This document shows positions 13,782 to 26,359 of a stretch of DNA of 64,000 nucleotides, piece by piece; position 1 is the stretch's first letter, and each line of letters begins with the position of its first letter. A program made the translations under genes and the position numbers. Source of the stretch: Balamuthia mandrillaris (Eukaryota); the NCBI GenBank assembly GCA_031835245.2, contig JAVKOQ020000050.1, positions 62,001 through 126,000 of the forward strand, written 5' to 3'. The notes beneath the pieces were generated by a model. The model was given only the letters and a program-made list of their open reading frames with translations, was not told the origin of the DNA and ran no database searches.

Positions 13782-13941
13782 AGCAGAAAAAGACAAAAGA
13801 AGCGAGTTAGATGCCTTCTATTAATGTAAGAATCCACACTAGAGCGACGCACTTTTGAAGAACTACGGCTGACTTGTCGGAGCTAAAAGAAAGCATTGCA
13901 AGGCAGTGTTAAGTCAGCAGGAAAAAAAAAAGAAACAATAT

Positions 13942-13981
<40 letters not shown>

Positions 13982-14758
13982 GAACGGAGGAATTGTAATC
14001 TCATCAGTGCTCCTCAACAGGTCCACAATCGGTTTCAGCTGTTTGGCCATCATAGAGCGTCTGGCATGAGCGCTATGAGTGGTCTCTGCATTGCTCATTT
14101 CGTTTAACTCCACTTGACACGTTTCGCACTGAAAGGTGCCCGTCTCCATATTTAATATGCGAACAGCATCTAAATCGTTGTAACGCTGTCCGCATTGAGG
14201 ACATTCGTAGAGTTGATAGTCTACAGTGGAAGAGGACGAAGAGGATGAAAAAGAGGAGGACGAAGAGGATGAAAAAGAGGAGGATGAAGAGAAGCCAAGA
14301 TCGAGAACGAAGCCAGCAGAGGCACCGTCTTGAGAGGATACCTTTTGGTTGATGATGAAGAGCTTGTAACGGAGGACGTTGATAAAGTGTTTGTAGTCGA
14401 TGTACCAGTAACGTTGTTTATTGGAGTAGGTGCGACCGGTTAGCGTGTTAATGAGCTGTTCACTCAACGTTTCGCTGTGTGGAGAGAGAGAGAGAGAATG
14501 AGAGAAAGATAGAGCCGAGAAGAGAAGAGAGCCCCATGGGGAGAAGGGAGGAGGAGGAGGAAGAAGAAGAAGAAGAAGAAGAAGAAGAAGAAGAAGAAGA
14601 ACAAGAAGAAGAAGAAGAAGAAGAAGAACAAGAACAAGAAGAACAAGAACAAGAACAAGAACAAGAAGAAGAAGAACAGGAACAAGAAGAAGAAGAAGAA
14701 GAAGAAGAAGAAGAAGAAGAAGAAGAAGAACAAAGAACGAAGACGAGTTAGAAGAAAG

Positions 14759-14802
<44 letters not shown>

Positions 14803-15023
14803 AACACGAAAGGAAAGCGACGAACAAAAAACAAACCTTTTGACAAAATGGTCGGCTTTGAGCTGTGAGAGAAGAGCGCTCACCCGTTTGACTTGGAGGT
14901 GGACATAATGTGCCAGATCGACGTCCCTTACTCTGTTTCTCGCAAAGATGAGGAAAGAGAAGAAAGCAACAAGGAAGAAGAAGGAAGAAGAATGAGAAGA
15001 GGCTAGAAAGGAAGGAGATGAGG

Positions 15024-15074
<51 letters not shown>

Positions 15075-15347
15075 GGGGGAGAGAGAGATGAGAAAGAGAG
15101 AGCGAGAGAGAGAAGTGAGAACATACAGCCGGTTGGCGCGAACCATGGCATCGATAAGCACCACGTGTTCGTCGCTGTAGAAGGCCCTCACGACCATGCG
15201 CACCAGGTCCTCCAACACCCTTCTTCCGGTCCTTCGCGCGTTGACCACCACCGAAGTGGCCTTCTTGCCTGAGCCTCTTCCTGATTTTTTGGCGGCGGAA
15301 GAGCCCGCTCCTCCTCCTCTGCCTCCTTTCCCTCTTGCCCTCTTCAT
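11795..15347 (-). CDS. GTF2E1: General transcription factor IIE subunit alpha, multi-exon
   Basis: LVRMVVRAFY, YWYIDYKHFINVLRYKL, zinc ribbon YECPQCGQRYNDLDA...FQCETCQVEL, QLKPIVDLLR, C-terminal VQVGDKSIPITQVT..DKELMTIQEYE. Confidence 0.9.
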
Positions 15348-15395
15348 TCTGTTTTCTTTTCTTTCTTTTTTCACCAAAAATAAAAATGATAACAG

Positions 15396-15446
<51 letters not shown>

Positions 15447-15591
15447 GGAGAGAGAGAAGTGTGGATCAAACCACTTCTTTTCTTTCTTCTGTTTCTTTAA
15501 AGTTCATTCGTGACGACATGGTTCATTTCCAGGTCGGCACAAAATTTCTGCCACAAGGACGACACGATGATTCATTTCGACGAAATCTATT

Positions 15592-19179: not shown

Positions 19180-19454
19180 TCAAGCCCGTAGGTGATTGGT
19201 GCAGTGGTAGCAGGTACACCGGCATTGAGGACAGGAGCAGTGCGCGACAACATTTCCACCAGAAGACATTCGCAACGAAGAAGAGGAAGAGGATGAGGAA
19301 GGCGAATAGTTGTACTTGTAGTCACCACTCGTCGCTGTTGTTGTTGTTGGGGTGGGCTGCGGCCAACCGGCACGATAATACGGCGCAGGAAGAGGGCGTT
19401 CATTAACCGTATTTGTCGTCTATTATCGATATAAAGAGGCGTAAGAATCCAGCG

Positions 19455-19493
<39 letters not shown>

Positions 19494-20702
19494 GTTACCT
19501 CTTTACCATAGAACCAATGCGCTTGTTGTGGTTGTTCGTAGGAGTCTTGTTCCTCTTGAGCCGGCAAACTCAACCAACGAAAATAGTCGTTTGAATAACT
19601 TGTCGAGAAAGGTAAGGCGCTTGTTGATTCGATGGAAGAGGAACCGGACTCAAACAACGGGCCAGGAGAGGACCTTCCGGAGGCACTGTCCGAATGACTG
19701 GGCGAAGAGGAACCTCCTCTTCCTGCCGCAGCTCCATAGCCACTGTCACTTCCATCTTCAGCGAAACAGCCTGCATCGAGCGAGGTTCTTTCAAGCTTGA
19801 TGCCGGAAGGATTGAATGGATAGCTTCTCGATATTGTTGTCATGGAGGACGAAGAAGTGGGTGGTGATGATGAAGAAGGTGCTTTTTTGTCTTGTCGAAT
19901 ATCGTCCAATAGTTTTCGCCACAAATGCTCCGTACTTTCTGAACCAGGAAGAGAGGGAGGAAGAGAATGAGGATGAGGTTGAGGGTGCGAGAGTTGAGAG
20001 GACGTAGAAGAGGGAGCAGAAGAATAAGCATAAGCAGAAGAAGAAGAGAGCTCAGAAGGGTTGGAATAGATTTGCGGTTCAGAGGAAGCTTGTTGTTGGG
20101 GATGGCGAAGTGGAGAAGAGGAAGAAGGACGTCTGGTAAGCGTAAAGTGCCTGAGTGTGGAGCCGCGTTTGCCGCGCCGACATTTGATGACCCCAGGAAA
20201 AGCCAAGCGGACAATCTTGCCAAAGATGGGGCGCGTGGCGGAGGGCAGGTTTTGGGAGGCGGAGAAGGCTCGGTAGTCGTGGTACATGGTTTCAATGGCG
20301 GTCGTGTGTTGTTCGCTCAGTTGGTAGTTCTCTCGTAACCTTCATTTTATAGAAGAAAAAAAATAACAATAATAAAATAGCATAAATAAAAAAAACGGAA
20401 TGAATGGATCGAATGTCAGAAAGAAATATACTTTTTTTTAAAAAAAAATTGAAAAGAGAGCAAAAAAACAAAAAAGAGGAGTGGGGAGTTGTGTGTTGTT
20501 TTGTTGTTGGTGGGGTGGTGGTGGTGGAAAAGAGAAGAAGAAGCAGGAAGTAACATTTAAAAAAAATAAAGTACCATGAGATGGTAGTTTTCTTGGCGAA
20601 GCTTTTCATGAACGTTTTAGGCATGCCCTTGGGGCGGTTGCCGTGGAGCACCGGGATGTTCCGACTGGCGTCACCAGCGACGTCGTCAGCGTCTCCTTGC
20701 AT
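19180..20702 (-). CDS. RFX winged-helix DNA-binding transcription factor with C-terminal Cys/His cluster (3 exons)
   Basis: Spliced TISWLRENYQ...IETMYHDYRAF...ATRPIFGKIVRLAFPGVIKCRRGKRG matches the RFX DBD pattern (WLxENY, FGKxIR, RRLGxRG). Intron 19420-19498 is phase 0; the last exon 19419-19180 ends HCSCPQCRCTCYHCTNHLRA*. Confidence 0.8.
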
Positions 20703-21725
20703 GATTCACTGCCTTAACCCAAAAAAAAAAGAGGTGGGCTGTTTTTTTTTTCTGTTATGGCTGACGAAGCGGAGGTGTGGAGCGTGCGATCCAACTATTT
20801 GCTTTTTTAAGAAGCAGTCTCCTGTTTTTATTTTTTATTCCTTTGTTTTGTGTTACTTCTCTTTTTCCTTTTGTTGTTTTTTTTTTCTAGCGAAAAAAGA
20901 AAGAGAGAATGCTTTGTGTGTGTGCTTTTTTTTTTCTTCTCCTCTTTAAAACTCTGCAAAACAACGCACAAAGAAGAAAAACAGAAAAATAGGAACCATC
21001 AGCTGCAATGGCAAATGGAACTCAATTCTTTTTCGTGTTTGCTGCTCATTGGTGCCGAAGAGAAAAAACAGCGTTTCATCATGCCTTTATCTATATCTAT
21101 TGTTCGAGTGATAACTCCAGATTTCGTAGAGTTTAAAACATCTACGCTTCGCAAGCGTTGCCTTAAAAGGAATCCGTTCCGGACGTCAAATCCCCGGATG
21201 GATGACCTTTTTTGTATTTCGGCCAATTAATAATCGCTATATTTAACATTAACTGTCCGAAGATAGCTTTTATGGCGCATAGAAAATCCGAAGAAATTTC
21301 AAATTTTCACGTGAGATAAAAATCCCCCGATTTGTTTGAAACCGGTAGATAAGGCCGATCAGCAAGTACAAATAAGCTGCGGTGAATTCCATAGTGCGAT
21401 AACGTCAAATCCCGAAAAATCGCCGGAATCCTTGCTGCACTCACACCCTAGTTAAGGTAATTATTCCACCTTAATAGCAGGTCGTACAACCTCCTTTGCA
21501 ACGCGCGAAAGCACTGCTTTGCCGCTTTGGTTGACGACTTGAAATCCTTAAAGAATTATGAAAATCGGGCGAAGCGCAATGGAGCACCGGGTTTTTATCT
21601 TTACGATAAGCATTTGTTAGGTGACTTGCCTTTTGCTAGATCATTTCAATAAAAACCACGGTTCTTTCTCACGTGAAAAAGGGTTTTGTCTATTTTTTTT
21701 TTCGCTTCGCCAAGCACTCAAGTTT

Positions 21726-24700
21726 TTATTTTGGTTGAACGTTTCGTTTGTTGCGGAAGAACGTTGCCAAGTGACTGAAAACAGGGCCGAAAGAAGTAGA
21801 AGACAGAGAAGAAGAAGAAGAAACAGAAGGAGGACAAGACGGCGAGGAAGAGAGACCAGAAGAAGAGAAAGAAGAGACGTGTTGTGGAGGGTTGCCCAAT
21901 CTAGAGGATATCCATTTTGGAAGCTTGGCAATTACACTTTGTCTTTGGTACCTGTGGGTGTTTTTGGTTTCGGTGTTTTTGCTGGTTTTTAGGTCTTGCT
22001 GTGACAAATCAAGAGAGAAGAAAGAGGAGAGAAGAAAGGAGAGTAGAAGCGGGAAACAGGAGAGAGATAGAGAGAGAGGGAGAGAGGGAGAGAGAGTGGA
22101 AGCAAGAAGAAAGAGAAGAGAGAGGAGAGGAGGAGACAAAAGGAAGAACCTTTGGTCGATGAATACGATGGCGGCATAGTCGTTGGCATGTCGAATGGCA
22201 CGCCCGATGGATTGGTTCACAGCCCTCATGCACAGGTTCTCATAGAAGGAAGATCCAGGAGTGGATGAGCTTTGCGTTTCTTGATGATGTTGGGAGATAT
22301 AGCGGATCTTTTCTTGAAGAATGGGGTCGCTTTTGTTTGGATAAGGGAGACCCACCATCACGATGCACCTGTTTCATCCACAGGAAGATGGTCAGACAAC
22401 GAACAACCATTTGGTAACTTTTGAAAGATATTTAAAGTTGAATGGACATCATCGAGAGAGAGAGAGACCTGGCTAAGCCATCGCTAAAGTTAATGCCTTC
22501 AGACATTTTACCGCCAACCACAGAGCAAAGCATGGCTCCTCCTTTTGCTGTGGCCGTTGAGGCAACACCACAACTGCTGTTGTTTCCTTGGGTGATGCAT
22601 TCTTTGTACTGCCGTAATGTTTCTGGAATGTCTCCTGCTTTCTTGGGCTCAACAAAAACCTTTTTCTTGGCGTTAAGCGTTTCCAGGAGTCCACTTTGTC
22701 GCCATGTGGACATGACGGAATCGGCGTACGCATACGATGGAAAGAAACAAACCAAACCATCTGGAATGACGTGACAAAGATTCAACAAAGCGTATCCCAA
22801 TTCTTCCATCTTGTTTGTTTGTTTTATTGTTAGTCAGTTCTTCTTCGAAGAACGAACAAGAGAAAGAGAGAGAGAGCAGAGAGAGAGAGAGCAGAGAGAG
22901 AGAGAGAGAGAAGAGAGAGAAGAGAGTAAGCGACGAACAAAAATAGAAGACAAACCAGTTTCGGAGAAGAACGGGATTGATAGGTAAAGTCAAATGGAAC
23001 ATCGGAAGGTCCCTTAGATAAGATCAGCGCCACGAGGTTCTCCTCCGGGATGACATGGCCACAAGAGAAGACGTGAAGCTTGGCGATGGCCTTGCTGGCT
23101 TTCCTCTCTCTTTCGGTTGCCGCCAATTCATTCAACGAATCGACAATGGCAGAAGATAACTTGACATTGTTGCTGCTGTCGTTTTGAGTTGAGGCAGACG
23201 ATGGAGAAGACTTGCATTCGGGAGACGGTTGATGCAAAGGTCCGAAGAGATGAGCAACGTAATCTGATAACTATCCAGCAGTTGTTTTTGGTTAGTGAAC
23301 AATAATAAAAGAGAGAATCGTAAAAGAGAACAGAAGAGAGGAATGAGAGTTTTCCCGCAGACGAGTAGGTATAGAGGTAAGATACCGGTTGCATAGTTCC
23401 GCCTGCAAGAATGAGGGCGTGAGCATCCTCCACCACTTCTTTAATGTGAGCTGCTGGATTGAGCAACACGAATTGAACTTTGGAATGTCTTTCATTTTCT
23501 GCATTTTTTGTGCGATTGTTCAGCATACACAGAGAATAGAGAAGAGAGCGGAGACAAGAGACAACGAGACAAGAGAGAAGAGCGAGAGAAGAGAAAAAGA
23601 GACAAGAGAAGAGAGAACAGAAGCAAAGAGATAAGCAGATATGATGTACGGGCATTGCGAGAGACAACAACTCGACCGTCCTTATTGGCATTTGTCATTG
23701 CCACCAGAAAGGCTTCCACCTGTCCCAAAGCCGGTCTGTGTTTTTCTATTTCTGCTTCTTTGATAAGGGAAAATAGACGGGCTTTTAACAAAGGATGGAT
23801 AAGAGAAATGTTACAAAAGACAAACCGTCTTCATCGTCTTCATCTGGAACAGCAATCCCCATTTCAGCATCCCACCTTTCAAAAAAGCCGTTCAACTTTG
23901 TTCAGAACGAGAAGCATATGTTAACAAATAAAGATAAACGAATAAGATAAGAGAGTGGCGTGAGTGACATCGAACCTTCCTTACAATGTCGCTGCGTTGA
24001 AAATACTTTTCTATCTTGAAGAGATTTAAGTGTTGAATCTTGCAACTCGCCGCAAAGTCATTAAGTGTAGATAAAGTTTGCAATTGTGACGAAACCGAAG
24101 AAGTGGAAGAAGAAGAGGAGGAGGAGGAAGAAGAAACTTCTTCTGTCTTGTAGCCTTCTTTTTGTGATTTGCATGTTGGTTGCAGCGAAGGAGGAGAAGA
24201 AACCTTTAGTGCTTTGATCAATGAACGAATGAAGAAAAGGATGCGTTCGATGTATTCCAGATTTTTTTGAAGCAGTCGAGAGGAGTATCTTTCTTTGTAC
24301 TGACTCAGCTGTGAATGCGCTTTCATCAACTTTTTCGATGATGAAGCAAAAAAACGAGGATATGAAGAAGCAAAAAAATAAGAATGTAGAAAGAGAAGAA
24401 AAGAAAGAAAGGAGAAGGAGGAAAGATTACTTGAGCCATTGAGAGTGAAGTACTATATATCTCGTTTATGGCATCAATAAGGTTATGCGCCTCGTCTACG
24501 ACCACAATGTTACCTTTGAGATCAATGCCCATTGACTCTCGTGTGCTTTTATGCAAAAGTGTTGCATAAGGCAACGTTACAAGCTAGCACAAATGTACAA
24601 TAACGTTTAGCTCACCAAATCAATGATGCAGAATAAAAACAAGAAGAAGAACCTCAGCAAAAGGTAGAGCTGCTCTGCTCCCATAGTAAGGGCAACATTT

Positions 24701-26359
24701 TTGTTTCTCTCCAAGTTCCAAAAGCTCTTCAATGTCTCTCACTTTTAGCTATCGTTGTTGTTACACAAGGCGGCGTATGAAAGAAAGAAATGAAGATAGC
24801 ATACCAAAACATGATCACGGAACAAACGTTGAGAAGTCGGTTCAAGAAATGGGCATTTGGAGATACTTGACTTCTTATTCTTATTCTTCTCGCTTTTGAT
24901 CATGTCCAAACAACGATCGTTCATGCGAGAAACTGAGCCTAAACGCTTCACTTGAGCGTTGATGCAGAGGTTCTTGCGAGAGCCTAGAGACACTGTTCTT
25001 ACGTGACGAGCAAAAGAGGTCTTCTTCACTTCGCTGACGAACTGGTCCAATTGCGAGTGAGTTCTGCTGCAGTAATAGATCTGTTTTATGTATGTTTTTT
25101 TTTAAAAAAATAGATAAGCAGTGAAGAGAACAGAAACAAAAAGAAGAACGAAGAAAAAGAGCAAAAAAGCGAGACCTTACGAATGGAGGAAGCAATCTCG
25201 GCCTCCTCTTCACCCTCTTCATCCGAAGAGCACGCGTTGCGGTCATATATCTGCAACAGCTGACGATACAATTCGCTTTCCTTCTTCCTCTCTCTTTTCC
25301 TTCTCCTTCTTTCTTCCTCTTTCTCCGTTTTCTTCCGTTGTCGTTCCTCTTCCTCATCTTCGCTCTGATACTCATCTAAACAAAACTCTTCATCACTAAA
25401 GTCCAGTTCTCCTTCATCACCACCATCGTTGCTTATCTTGCTTCCTTTTGCTTTTCTTCTTCCTCGTTTTCTCTGTCTCTCCTTCTCGCTTCGTGCTAGC
25501 CTCATTCTTTCCTCTCTTTCTCTTTCTTCTGCCTCCGCCAACATTTGTTCCACCACGCGAAGGTTGTCTTTGTTCTGCCTTCTCTTTATCTCTCTCTTTT
25601 CCTCTTCAGAGCCTTCCATGTTGAATATTGCCGGTTTGTTGTTATTTACACTTGCCCTTGCTCGCTTCTTATGTTGTTGTTCGTCTTTGCGTTCGTTGAG
25701 ATGAGATGAAGAAGAAGAACAAGAAGATGGTGAAGAAGAAGAGTCAAGAATATCACGTAAAAGAGAAAGTCTGGTTTTGAGTTTATCTCTCTTTCGTAGC
25801 TTTTCTTCGATGAGGAACTGTTTCTCTTTCTCTTTCATGCGCTCGTAATGAGCAGCCATCCAGTCCTCCTCTTCATCTTCCTCGTCCTCCTTTTTGCCTT
25901 CTTCCTTCTTTTCCTCTGGGGAGAAAAAAAAGAGTAAGAAAGAAAAGAAAAGATTAAAAAAGATATAAGAACGAATGGAAAACGGAGAAGAGAGAAAGCT
26001 GAGGGACAAAAAAAAAAGAAAGATAACGGTGTACATACCTTCAGTTGGAGCAAGTTCCAACTTGTTTTCATTGTCTTTGAGCCATTGAAGCGTACTACAA
26101 ATGATGCTCAACGACTTACCCTATTTCCAGAAAGAGGAGAGCGCAAAGATCAACACCTATGAAAGAAAAGAGAAGCGAGAAGAAGAAGTGGGATGGCAAA
26201 AATAAAAGGTAGTACGGTGCCAGTGGGGCTTTCGAAGATGCCGATGCCGCCTTTGTCAAGTACAGCGTAGAGCTGCTCCATAAAGTCCTTCTGAATGGCA
26301 TACGGCCGGAAGGGAAAAGAAAAAGGGTTCCTCTCCCACTGCTCTGCCGTCGGTTCCAT
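21726..26359 (-). CDS. DDX11: ATP-dependent DNA helicase DDX11/Chl1 (XPD-family Fe-S helicase), multi-exon
   Basis: FSFPFRPYAIQKDFM, GIFESPTGT|GKSLSIICS, YCSRTHSQLDQFV, SLGSRKNLCIN, CPYYGSR, VVVDEAHNLIDAI, LILAGGTMQP, FSCGHVIP, GGKMSEGINFSD, MRAVNQSIGRAIRH. Confidence 0.95.

What the first reader, a model, noticed from the sequence alone, without database searches (positions are those of the whole stretch)
19180..20702. RFX transcription factor ending in an exact Mac1/Cuf1-type copper-sensing motif
Seen: splicing the phase-0 intron 19420-19498 opens a last exon absent from the ORF track. It ends ...VAHCSCPQCRCTCYHCTNHLRA*. Residues at 19239-19192 fit C-x-C-x4-C-x-C-x2-C-x2-H exactly, plus one extra Cys. 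Established: this spacing is the Cu(I)-binding Cys-rich repeat of the fungal copper regulators Mac1, Cuf1 and GRISEA, which use a copper-fist DBD rather than RFX. Inference: a winged-helix RFX DBD has been coupled to a metal-sensing module, which could be an undescribed copper/metal-responsive regulator in this lineage.
Basis: partly seen in the sequence, partly recalled or inferred. Interest (0 to 1): 0.85.

Follow-up and report, generated by a model that had tools for sequence, protein, structure and literature searches.

The report
Amoeba RFX factor with tandem Cys-tail
An amoeba gene encodes a spliced RFX-type DNA-binding protein whose tail ends in six cysteines spaced exactly like the yeast copper sensor Mac1; the tail likely binds a metal, but it was probably built by doubling a short cysteine motif common in amoebal RFX proteins, and copper sensing is untested.

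Summary
The minus-strand gene has three exons (20702-20575, 20339-19499, 19419-19180; 402 aa). The 19420-19498 junction is in assembled contigs of 3 runs from 2 studies, and the protein is identical to Balamuthia mandrillaris KAL6070049.1. The N-terminus is a divergent RFX winged helix (Pfam E 6.5e-10; Foldseek to hRFX1 E 1e-6). C384-H399 fits S. cerevisiae Mac1 REP (CXCX4CXCX2CX2H) exactly, but not S. pombe Cuf1 (X3). The copper inference is only partly supported. None of 188 related RFX rows has a REP pattern, and no ortholog outside Balamuthia was found. The island reads as two tandem CxCxxC units plus His. Single CxCxxC islands recur in amoebozoan-type RFX tails (4 of 43 clusters, 0.17 expected) and are conserved within subfamilies. 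The island also fits the Sp buttonhead box and the dMTF-1 copper cluster start, so spacing does not name the metal. Best reading: a home-grown six-thiolate metal module that converged on Mac1 spacing. A true copper-homeostasis sensor has about 17% odds.

The parts
20575..20702 (-). Exon 1 coding part (M1 to the first two bases of W43); start of the RFX domain
   Evidence: NCBI model identical
20340..20574 (-). Intron 1, 235 nt, GT..AG, phase 2, inside the RFX domain
   Evidence: joint in raw RNA reads X7 (4), X8 (2) and 2 contigs of X1
19499..20339 (-). Exon 2: rest of RFX domain and Ser/Pro-rich disordered region
20144..20591 (-). RFX winged-helix DNA-binding domain, residues 38-108 (split by intron 1)
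   Evidence: Pfam PF02257 39.9 bits, cutoff 27; Foldseek 1dp7_P E 1.1e-6, rmsd 1.0
19889..19933 (-). Isolated predicted helix, residues 179-193, in the disordered tail; candidate activation or partner-binding element (inferred)
   Evidence: model secondary structure, pLDDT about 74 in block 181-190
19420..19498 (-). Intron 2, 79 nt, GT..AG, phase 0, holds a CT repeat
   Evidence: skipped in contigs of X1, X2, X3
19180..19419 (-). Exon 3 coding part with stop codon
   Evidence: the one indel listed in it is 3 nt, those just past the stop are 1 and 2 nt
19222..19239 (-). CxCxxC unit 1 (C384, C386, C389); also fits buttonhead-box consensus CXCPXC
19201..19218 (-). CxCxxC unit 2 (C391, C393, C396); with the following T-N it resembles the CxCxxCTN island of the P0023/P0025 subfamily
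   Evidence: (E 0.095 in a small set, not significant alone)
19192..19242 (-). Whole Cys6-His3 island H383-H399; C384-H399 fits Mac1 REP spacing

Best explanation
This is a spliced Balamuthia gene for a divergent RFX winged-helix protein whose disordered tail ends in two tandem CxCxxC units plus His, which likely fold around a thiolate-bound metal (Zn(II) or Cu(I)) and likely tune the factor's contact with cofactors. Shown: gene structure, RFX fold by prediction, the Cys island, and recurrence of single CxCxxC islands in related RFX tails. Inferred: the tandem arose within the amoebal RFX family, giving one chain six thiolates; the Mac1 spacing is a by-product of two units and a His, i.e. convergence and not a borrowed fungal module. 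Inferred mechanism: the DBD binds DNA (probably not a standard X-box, since the wing is altered); the tail is unstructured until metal loads the six Cys, and the folded knot gates the activation region or a partner.
For: Splice and frame. Gene-wide purifying selection: 25 synonymous and 11 non-synonymous of 36 listed coding differences, 3:0 in the DBD. Cys clustering P 1.5e-5. CxCxxC in 4 of 43 non-canonical RFX clusters, 0.17 expected, P 2e-5; 0 of 14 canonical clusters. It is kept in 5 of 5 and 6 of 6 members of two subfamilies, in which one pair each shares only 26% and 32% of the tail. Of 25 three-Cys spacings only CxCxxC and CxxCxxC occur in multi-member clusters. Island of P0006/P0010 88% identical against 19% for the rest of the tail, 0 of 343 windows as high. 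Six Cys suffice for a Cu4-S6 cage in dMTF-1, which its authors call convergent with Mac1 (PMC2396432).
Against: No metal-binding data. No ortholog outside Balamuthia, so selection on this island itself is not shown: three non-ligand changes (V380A, A382T, T392S) and no ligand change among alleles is too little (about 0.2 by chance, my arithmetic), and exon 3 shows 2 non-synonymous to 1 synonymous. The enrichment pattern was chosen after seeing the data, one of the 4 hits is a poly-Cys run, and there is no whole-proteome control for Cys clumping. Island conservation does not stand out in the P0011 subfamily (27-107 of 226 windows as high). Similarity of unit 2 to relatives is not significant alone (E 0.095). 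The DBD sits on a long branch and no grouping was rejected or shown, so common descent of the units is unproven.
Confidence: 0.45

Rival explanations
1. A true Mac1-like copper sensor: Cu(I) forms a four-copper cluster on five or six Cys and His, the tail folds back on the DBD or activation region, and copper-uptake genes are switched off.
For: Exact REP spacing; C-terminal position after a disordered region, as in Mac1 (PMC6354809); given the island's composition the pattern arises in 4.7e-4 of shuffles, or about 1.7% if only CxC and CxxC gaps are allowed; the first four Cys also fit the dMTF-1 copper cluster.
Against: 0 of 188 relatives carry a REP, Cuf1 or CxCxxCxxH pattern; single copy with an extra Cys, whereas ScMac1 has two repeats; no copper-fist domain; even in fungi REP motifs were dispensable in Aspergillus under starvation and in Cryptococcus Cuf1; the genome scan looks at very many genes, so a 1-2% coincidence is expected somewhere.
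Confidence: 0.17
2. A neutral tail: the last exon is weakly constrained low-complexity sequence and the cysteines have no function.
For: Exon 3 has more amino-acid than silent changes in the few seen and tolerates in-frame indels; nearest paralog P0096 lacks an island (record marked partial); Cys-rich strings with this spacing arise readily from TGC/TGT repeats (103 of 117 metagenome matches).
Against: The island's other codons are not a TGY repeat (9 of 11 differ at two or more bases); clustering P 1.5e-5; related islands are conserved in relatives; all nine Cys/His are unchanged in the second allele.
Confidence: 0.15
3. A zinc clasp or hook: CxxC halves from two chains share Zn(II) and dimerise the factor, replacing the dimerisation domain that amoebal RFX proteins lack.
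For: Acanthamoeba RFX lack the dimerisation and C domains (PMC3493443); X-boxes are bound by dimers; no dimerisation-domain family is found here; paralogs with only three Cys could not fill a site alone (inference).
Against: Six Cys in one chain can be satisfied without a partner; no structural support; Rad50/CD4-Lck precedents seen only as search listings.
Confidence: 0.12
4. A metal-independent element: a buttonhead-box-like protein contact, a redox switch or lipidation site.
For: Unit 1 fits CXCPXC, tentatively linked to transactivation and found in many eukaryote genomes (PMC4558859, PMC3820594).
Against: The box has unknown function and was dispensable for Sp2 binding (PMC4368557); 0 of 188 relatives have CXCPXC; nine potential ligands in 17 residues favour metal binding (general knowledge).
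Confidence: 0.11

Closest known systems
Acanthamoeba castellanii RFX expansion (22 genes; e.g. ELR19686.1, ELR25061.1)
   Same: One RFX DBD near the N-terminus followed by a long disordered tail; several subfamilies carry short conserved Cys islands (CxCxxC or CxxCxxC(xxC)).
   Different: DBD only about 37% identical and on a long branch; relatives have three or four Cys in the island, not six plus His, and none fits REP.
S. cerevisiae Mac1 REP-I/REP-II
   Same: Spacing CXCX4CXCX2CX2H, C-terminal, in a transcription factor.
   Different: RFX instead of copper-fist DBD; one copy; an extra Cys; no sequence evidence of homology; copper binding untested.
S. pombe Cuf1, Aspergillus and Cryptococcus Mac1/Cuf1 REP
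   Same: Share the CxCxxCxxH end.
   Different: Their gap is X3, not X4, so the match is not exact.
Drosophila MTF-1 Cys cluster
   Same: Starts CxCxxCxC; six Cys; C-terminal to an unrelated DBD; a precedent for convergent Cu4-S6 sensing.
   Different: Last two Cys spaced differently; zinc-finger DBD; function shown there, not here.
Human RFX1 DBD (PDB 1dp7)
   Same: Same fold by prediction, rmsd 1.0 over 75 columns; K45, R58, G60, R62 positions kept.
   Different: 31% identity; S65, K66, Y67, Y69 positions are T, L, R, F; no B/C/dimerisation domain.
Sp-family buttonhead box (CXCPXC)
   Same: Unit 1 fits the consensus.
   Different: Not beside a KLF zinc-finger domain; six residues only, common in many genomes.

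Membership tests
RFX transcription factors | RFX DBD profile above the curated cutoff | tested here: met
   PF02257 39.9 bits vs 27, residues 38-108
RFX transcription factors | Winged-helix fold like hRFX1/RFX5 | tested here: met
   Predicted model; only two Foldseek hits at E<=0.001 are 1dp7 and 8zjr
RFX transcription factors (strict definition of Chu et al. 2010) | At least 40% identity to known RFX DBDs and all nine DNA-contact residues | tested here: not met
   31% to hRFX1; wing positions 65-67 and 69 changed; criterion in PMC2873420; which nine residues is recalled, the figure was not seen
RFX transcription factors | B, C and dimerisation domains (most animal and fungal members) | tested here: not met
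   Only PF02257 found; tail disordered; also missing in Acanthamoeba RFX
RFX transcription factors | Binds X-box DNA | not testable with these tools
   needs SELEX/ChIP
Mac1/Cuf1/GRISEA copper regulators | N-terminal copper-fist DBD with (R/K)GRP | tested here: not met
   No such Pfam hit at E<=1; feature
Mac1/Cuf1/GRISEA copper regulators | REP spacing CXCX4CXCX2CX2H (ScMac1) | tested here: met
   C384-H399
Mac1/Cuf1/GRISEA copper regulators | REP spacing CXCX3CXCX2CX2H (SpCuf1) | tested here: not met
   gap is four residues
Mac1/Cuf1/GRISEA copper regulators | REP conserved in orthologs | tested here: inconclusive
   Kept in the second Balamuthia allele; 0 of 188 other rows, none shown to be an ortholog
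Mac1/Cuf1/GRISEA copper regulators | Cu(I) cluster binding and copper-dependent control of uptake genes | not testable with these tools
Sp/buttonhead factors | Btd box directly before a three-finger KLF DBD | tested here: not met
   CXCPXC present but no zinc-finger domain

The most novel reading that the evidence does not exclude
Amoebozoan RFX factors use an undescribed CxCxxC/CxxCxxC metal-thiolate micro-module, and this Balamuthia protein doubled it into a Mac1-like Cu(I) cluster site: a copper-sensing regulator built on an RFX scaffold, convergent with fungal Mac1 and fly MTF-1.
Probability: 0.17. Interest if true: 0.78.

Novelty: new variant of a known kind. Interest (0 to 1): 0.45.

Why it matters
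Amoebozoan RFX factors are listed as of unknown function (bioRxiv 2022.11.11.515474), and my searches (listings only, open-access library) showed no paper on a metal-binding RFX or on Cys islands in amoebal RFX tails. The recurring conserved Cys micro-motifs give a first, cheap handle on how this expanded family is regulated: a 30-residue peptide titration separates the main explanations. If copper is the ligand, it would be a further independent origin of a Cu(I)-cluster sensor and a candidate copper regulator in a phagocytic amoeba. If not, it is a caution that REP spacing alone does not identify a copper sensor.

Tried and rejected
No whole genome was held, so Balamuthia copper-fist factors, Ctr genes and promoters could not be surveyed. 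Metagenome scan with the protein: 70 pattern matches, none confirmed. Metagenome scan for the six-Cys-plus-His DNA pattern: about 15,000 stretches estimated from 1 of 64 parts; of 117 loci seen, 103 are Cys runs from triplet repeats and 0 hit the RFX profile; L101 looked similar but lies in GC-rich DNA with overlapping open frames and no evidence of being a gene. Pfam on exon 3: nothing. PDB sequence search with the last 30 residues: only weak hits, E 0.13 or worse. ESM Atlas on the tail: no usable hit; on the whole protein only RFX clusters, scores 0.82 or less. Trees: Balamuthia row on a long branch; four candidate groupings all unrejected (p-AU 0.77-0.86) with a free tree that was not the best, so no ortholog call (8 rows dropped as too short, 16 more as redundant or long). 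Complex prediction of DBD with tail and zinc: tool not available, nothing folded. Other splice choices: retention, the donor at 19506 and the acceptor at 19335 lose the island, the acceptor at 19357 keeps it; none was seen in the contig pieces listed. X4 (small share) and X9 (4 reads) add nothing. Earlier findings: three look-ups, nothing. Supplement search of PMC4053784 for RFX: 0 hits in the one file held, so its section on RFX genes was not seen and may describe these tails. TCACGTGA twice upstream is within chance (16 of 100 shuffles). An X-box scan of the window was not done.

Full report
Observation. Reading the minus strand gives three exons, 20702-20575, 20339-19499 and 19419-19180, 1,209 nt, 402 aa. 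Intron 2 (19420-19498) is GT..AG and phase 0. The junction is contiguous in one contig each of X1, X2 and X3: three runs, two studies, all only guessed to be RNA, with 72, 351 and 38 nt on the shorter side. A contig of X5 enters the intron. Intron 1 is seen in raw RNA reads of X7 (4) and X8 (2) and in X1; raw reads list no joint for intron 2, where reads are cut at a CT repeat, though depth there falls to 0.4 or less. The NCBI protein P0004 (KAL6070049.1, Balamuthia mandrillaris, hypothetical) equals my translation, so the exon is annotated publicly though without a function. P0001 is a 97% identical second copy, probably the other allele. Of 36 coding differences listed (four non-coding rows left out, five rows not shown by the tool), 25 are silent and 11 change a residue; 3:0 in the DBD, 1:2 in exon 3.

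The DNA-binding domain. Pfam PF02257 scores 39.9 bits over residues 38-108, the only family found. The model has pLDDT 94-97 for residues 31-110 and mostly under 60 beyond, apart from a helix at 179-193. Foldseek's only hits at E<=0.001 are hRFX1 (E 1.1e-6, rmsd 1.0, 31% identity) and RFX5. In the gapless alignment to hRFX1, K45, R58, G60 and R62 are kept, while positions 65, 66, 67 and 69 read T, L, R, F (their role as DNA contacts is recalled). It fails the strict 40% rule of PMC2873420 (passages), so it is a divergent RFX whose target sequence may differ. RFX genes are known across amoebozoans, with 22 in Acanthamoeba (PMC4053784, passages), lacking the dimerisation domain (PMC3493443, passages) and of unknown function (bioRxiv 10.1101/2022.11.11.515474, passages; supplements not seen).

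The Cys island. H383-H399 holds six Cys and three His; six of the tail's seven Cys this close has P 1.5e-5, and it is not a decayed TGY repeat. C384-H399 fits CXCX4CXCX2CX2H, which PMC4992176 gives for both ScMac1 repeats; the same passage gives X3 for S. pombe Cuf1 (also PMC10816978 and PMC1636697, passages). So the match is exact for Mac1 only. Given the island's composition it arises in 4.7e-4 of shuffles, and in about 1.7% if Cys gaps are limited to CxC and CxxC: unlikely for one gene, not for a scan of many genomes. The same residues also fit the first four Cys of the dMTF-1 copper cluster (PMC2396432, passages) and the buttonhead box CXCPXC (PMC3820594, PMC4558859, PMC4368557, passages).

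Relatives. Three word searches and one full profile search (best 150 of 1,376 hits listed) gave 188 non-self rows, redundant and partly fragmentary (135 of 200 aa or more). None has the Mac1, Cuf1 or CxCxxCxxH pattern; 11 have CxCxxC and 22 CxxCxxC. The nearest DBD is a Balamuthia paralog, P0096 (40%, marked partial), without an island; two more Balamuthia paralogs also lack the pattern. No ortholog from another genus could be named: the row is a long branch and four groupings were all unrejected. Among 113 of 195 rows with one DBD and a tail of 100 aa or more, clustered at 70%, CxCxxC occurs in 4 of 43 non-canonical clusters (0.17 expected, P 2e-5; one is a poly-Cys run) and 0 of 14 canonical ones. 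'Non-canonical' means lacking RRLGxRG; most rows are unnamed, and those named are Acanthamoeba, Balamuthia or Pellita. The unit is kept in 5 of 5 and 6 of 6 members of two subfamilies, with 26% and 32% tail identity in the pair compared from each. Of 25 three-Cys spacings, only CxCxxC and CxxCxxC appear in multi-member clusters. The P0006/P0010 island is 88% identical against 19% for the rest of the tail; in the P0011 subfamily the island does not stand out. The pattern was chosen after seeing the data and there is no proteome-wide control.

Reading. I infer that the tandem arose in this family and meets the Mac1 spacing by convergence. Six thiolates and three His in 17 residues most likely bind a soft metal and fold a small knot that gates cofactor contact or activation (0.45). 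A real Mac1-like copper switch remains open (0.17): six Cys build a Cu4-S6 cage in dMTF-1, but REP motifs were dispensable in Aspergillus and Cryptococcus tests (PMC6354809, PMC13343922, passages), and no copper link exists here. A neutral tail (0.15), a zinc clasp replacing the dimerisation domain (0.12) and a metal-free contact or redox element (0.11) are the other rivals. Selection on this island itself is not shown: alleles differ at three non-ligand positions and at no ligand, too few to test.

Verdict. A real, expressed, correctly spliced gene; not a member of the Mac1 family; a divergent RFX with an unusual six-Cys tail. My five relevant paper searches (listings and abstract starts only) showed no description of a metal-binding RFX, but the Acanthamoeba paper's RFX supplement was not seen. 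The more solid new point is the family-wide Cys micro-motif. New variant of a known kind; interest 0.45.

Noticed in passing
window 20144-20591; proteins P0003, P0005: NCBI lists a second isoform for both copies that starts at M61, which would remove the first third of the DBD and keep the Cys tail; X1 and X8 show some cover inside intron 1. A possible DNA-binding-dead isoform.
   Followed up: partly
window 19889-19933 (-): Single amphipathic-looking helix (residues 179-193) in the disordered tail, a candidate activation or partner motif.
   Followed up: no
window 21726-26120 (-): Upstream neighbour is a DEAD_2/Helicase_C_2 helicase, by recall DDX11/Chl1-like; no copper-related neighbour was seen in the seven ORFs scanned.
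   Followed up: partly
window 21307-21314 and 21669-21676: Both TCACGTGA palindromes of the window lie in the intergenic region upstream of this gene; the count is within chance.
   Followed up: partly
window 13883-15503 (-): Gene that by inspection resembles TFIIE alpha (CxxC...CxxC ribbon); no Pfam hit on the two pieces scanned.
   Followed up: no
proteins P0073-P0079, P0089: Proteins of about 660-1,090 aa with two to five RFX-like stretches each scored among the best profile hits; left out of the tail statistics.
   Followed up: no
protein P0148: Unnamed RFX with a Ser run followed by one CxCxxC unit close to the C-terminus, the same layout as the Balamuthia tail.
   Followed up: partly
protein P0096: Nearest paralog is named 'Cellulose-binding protein, partial' by its source although it carries an RFX domain.
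   Followed up: no
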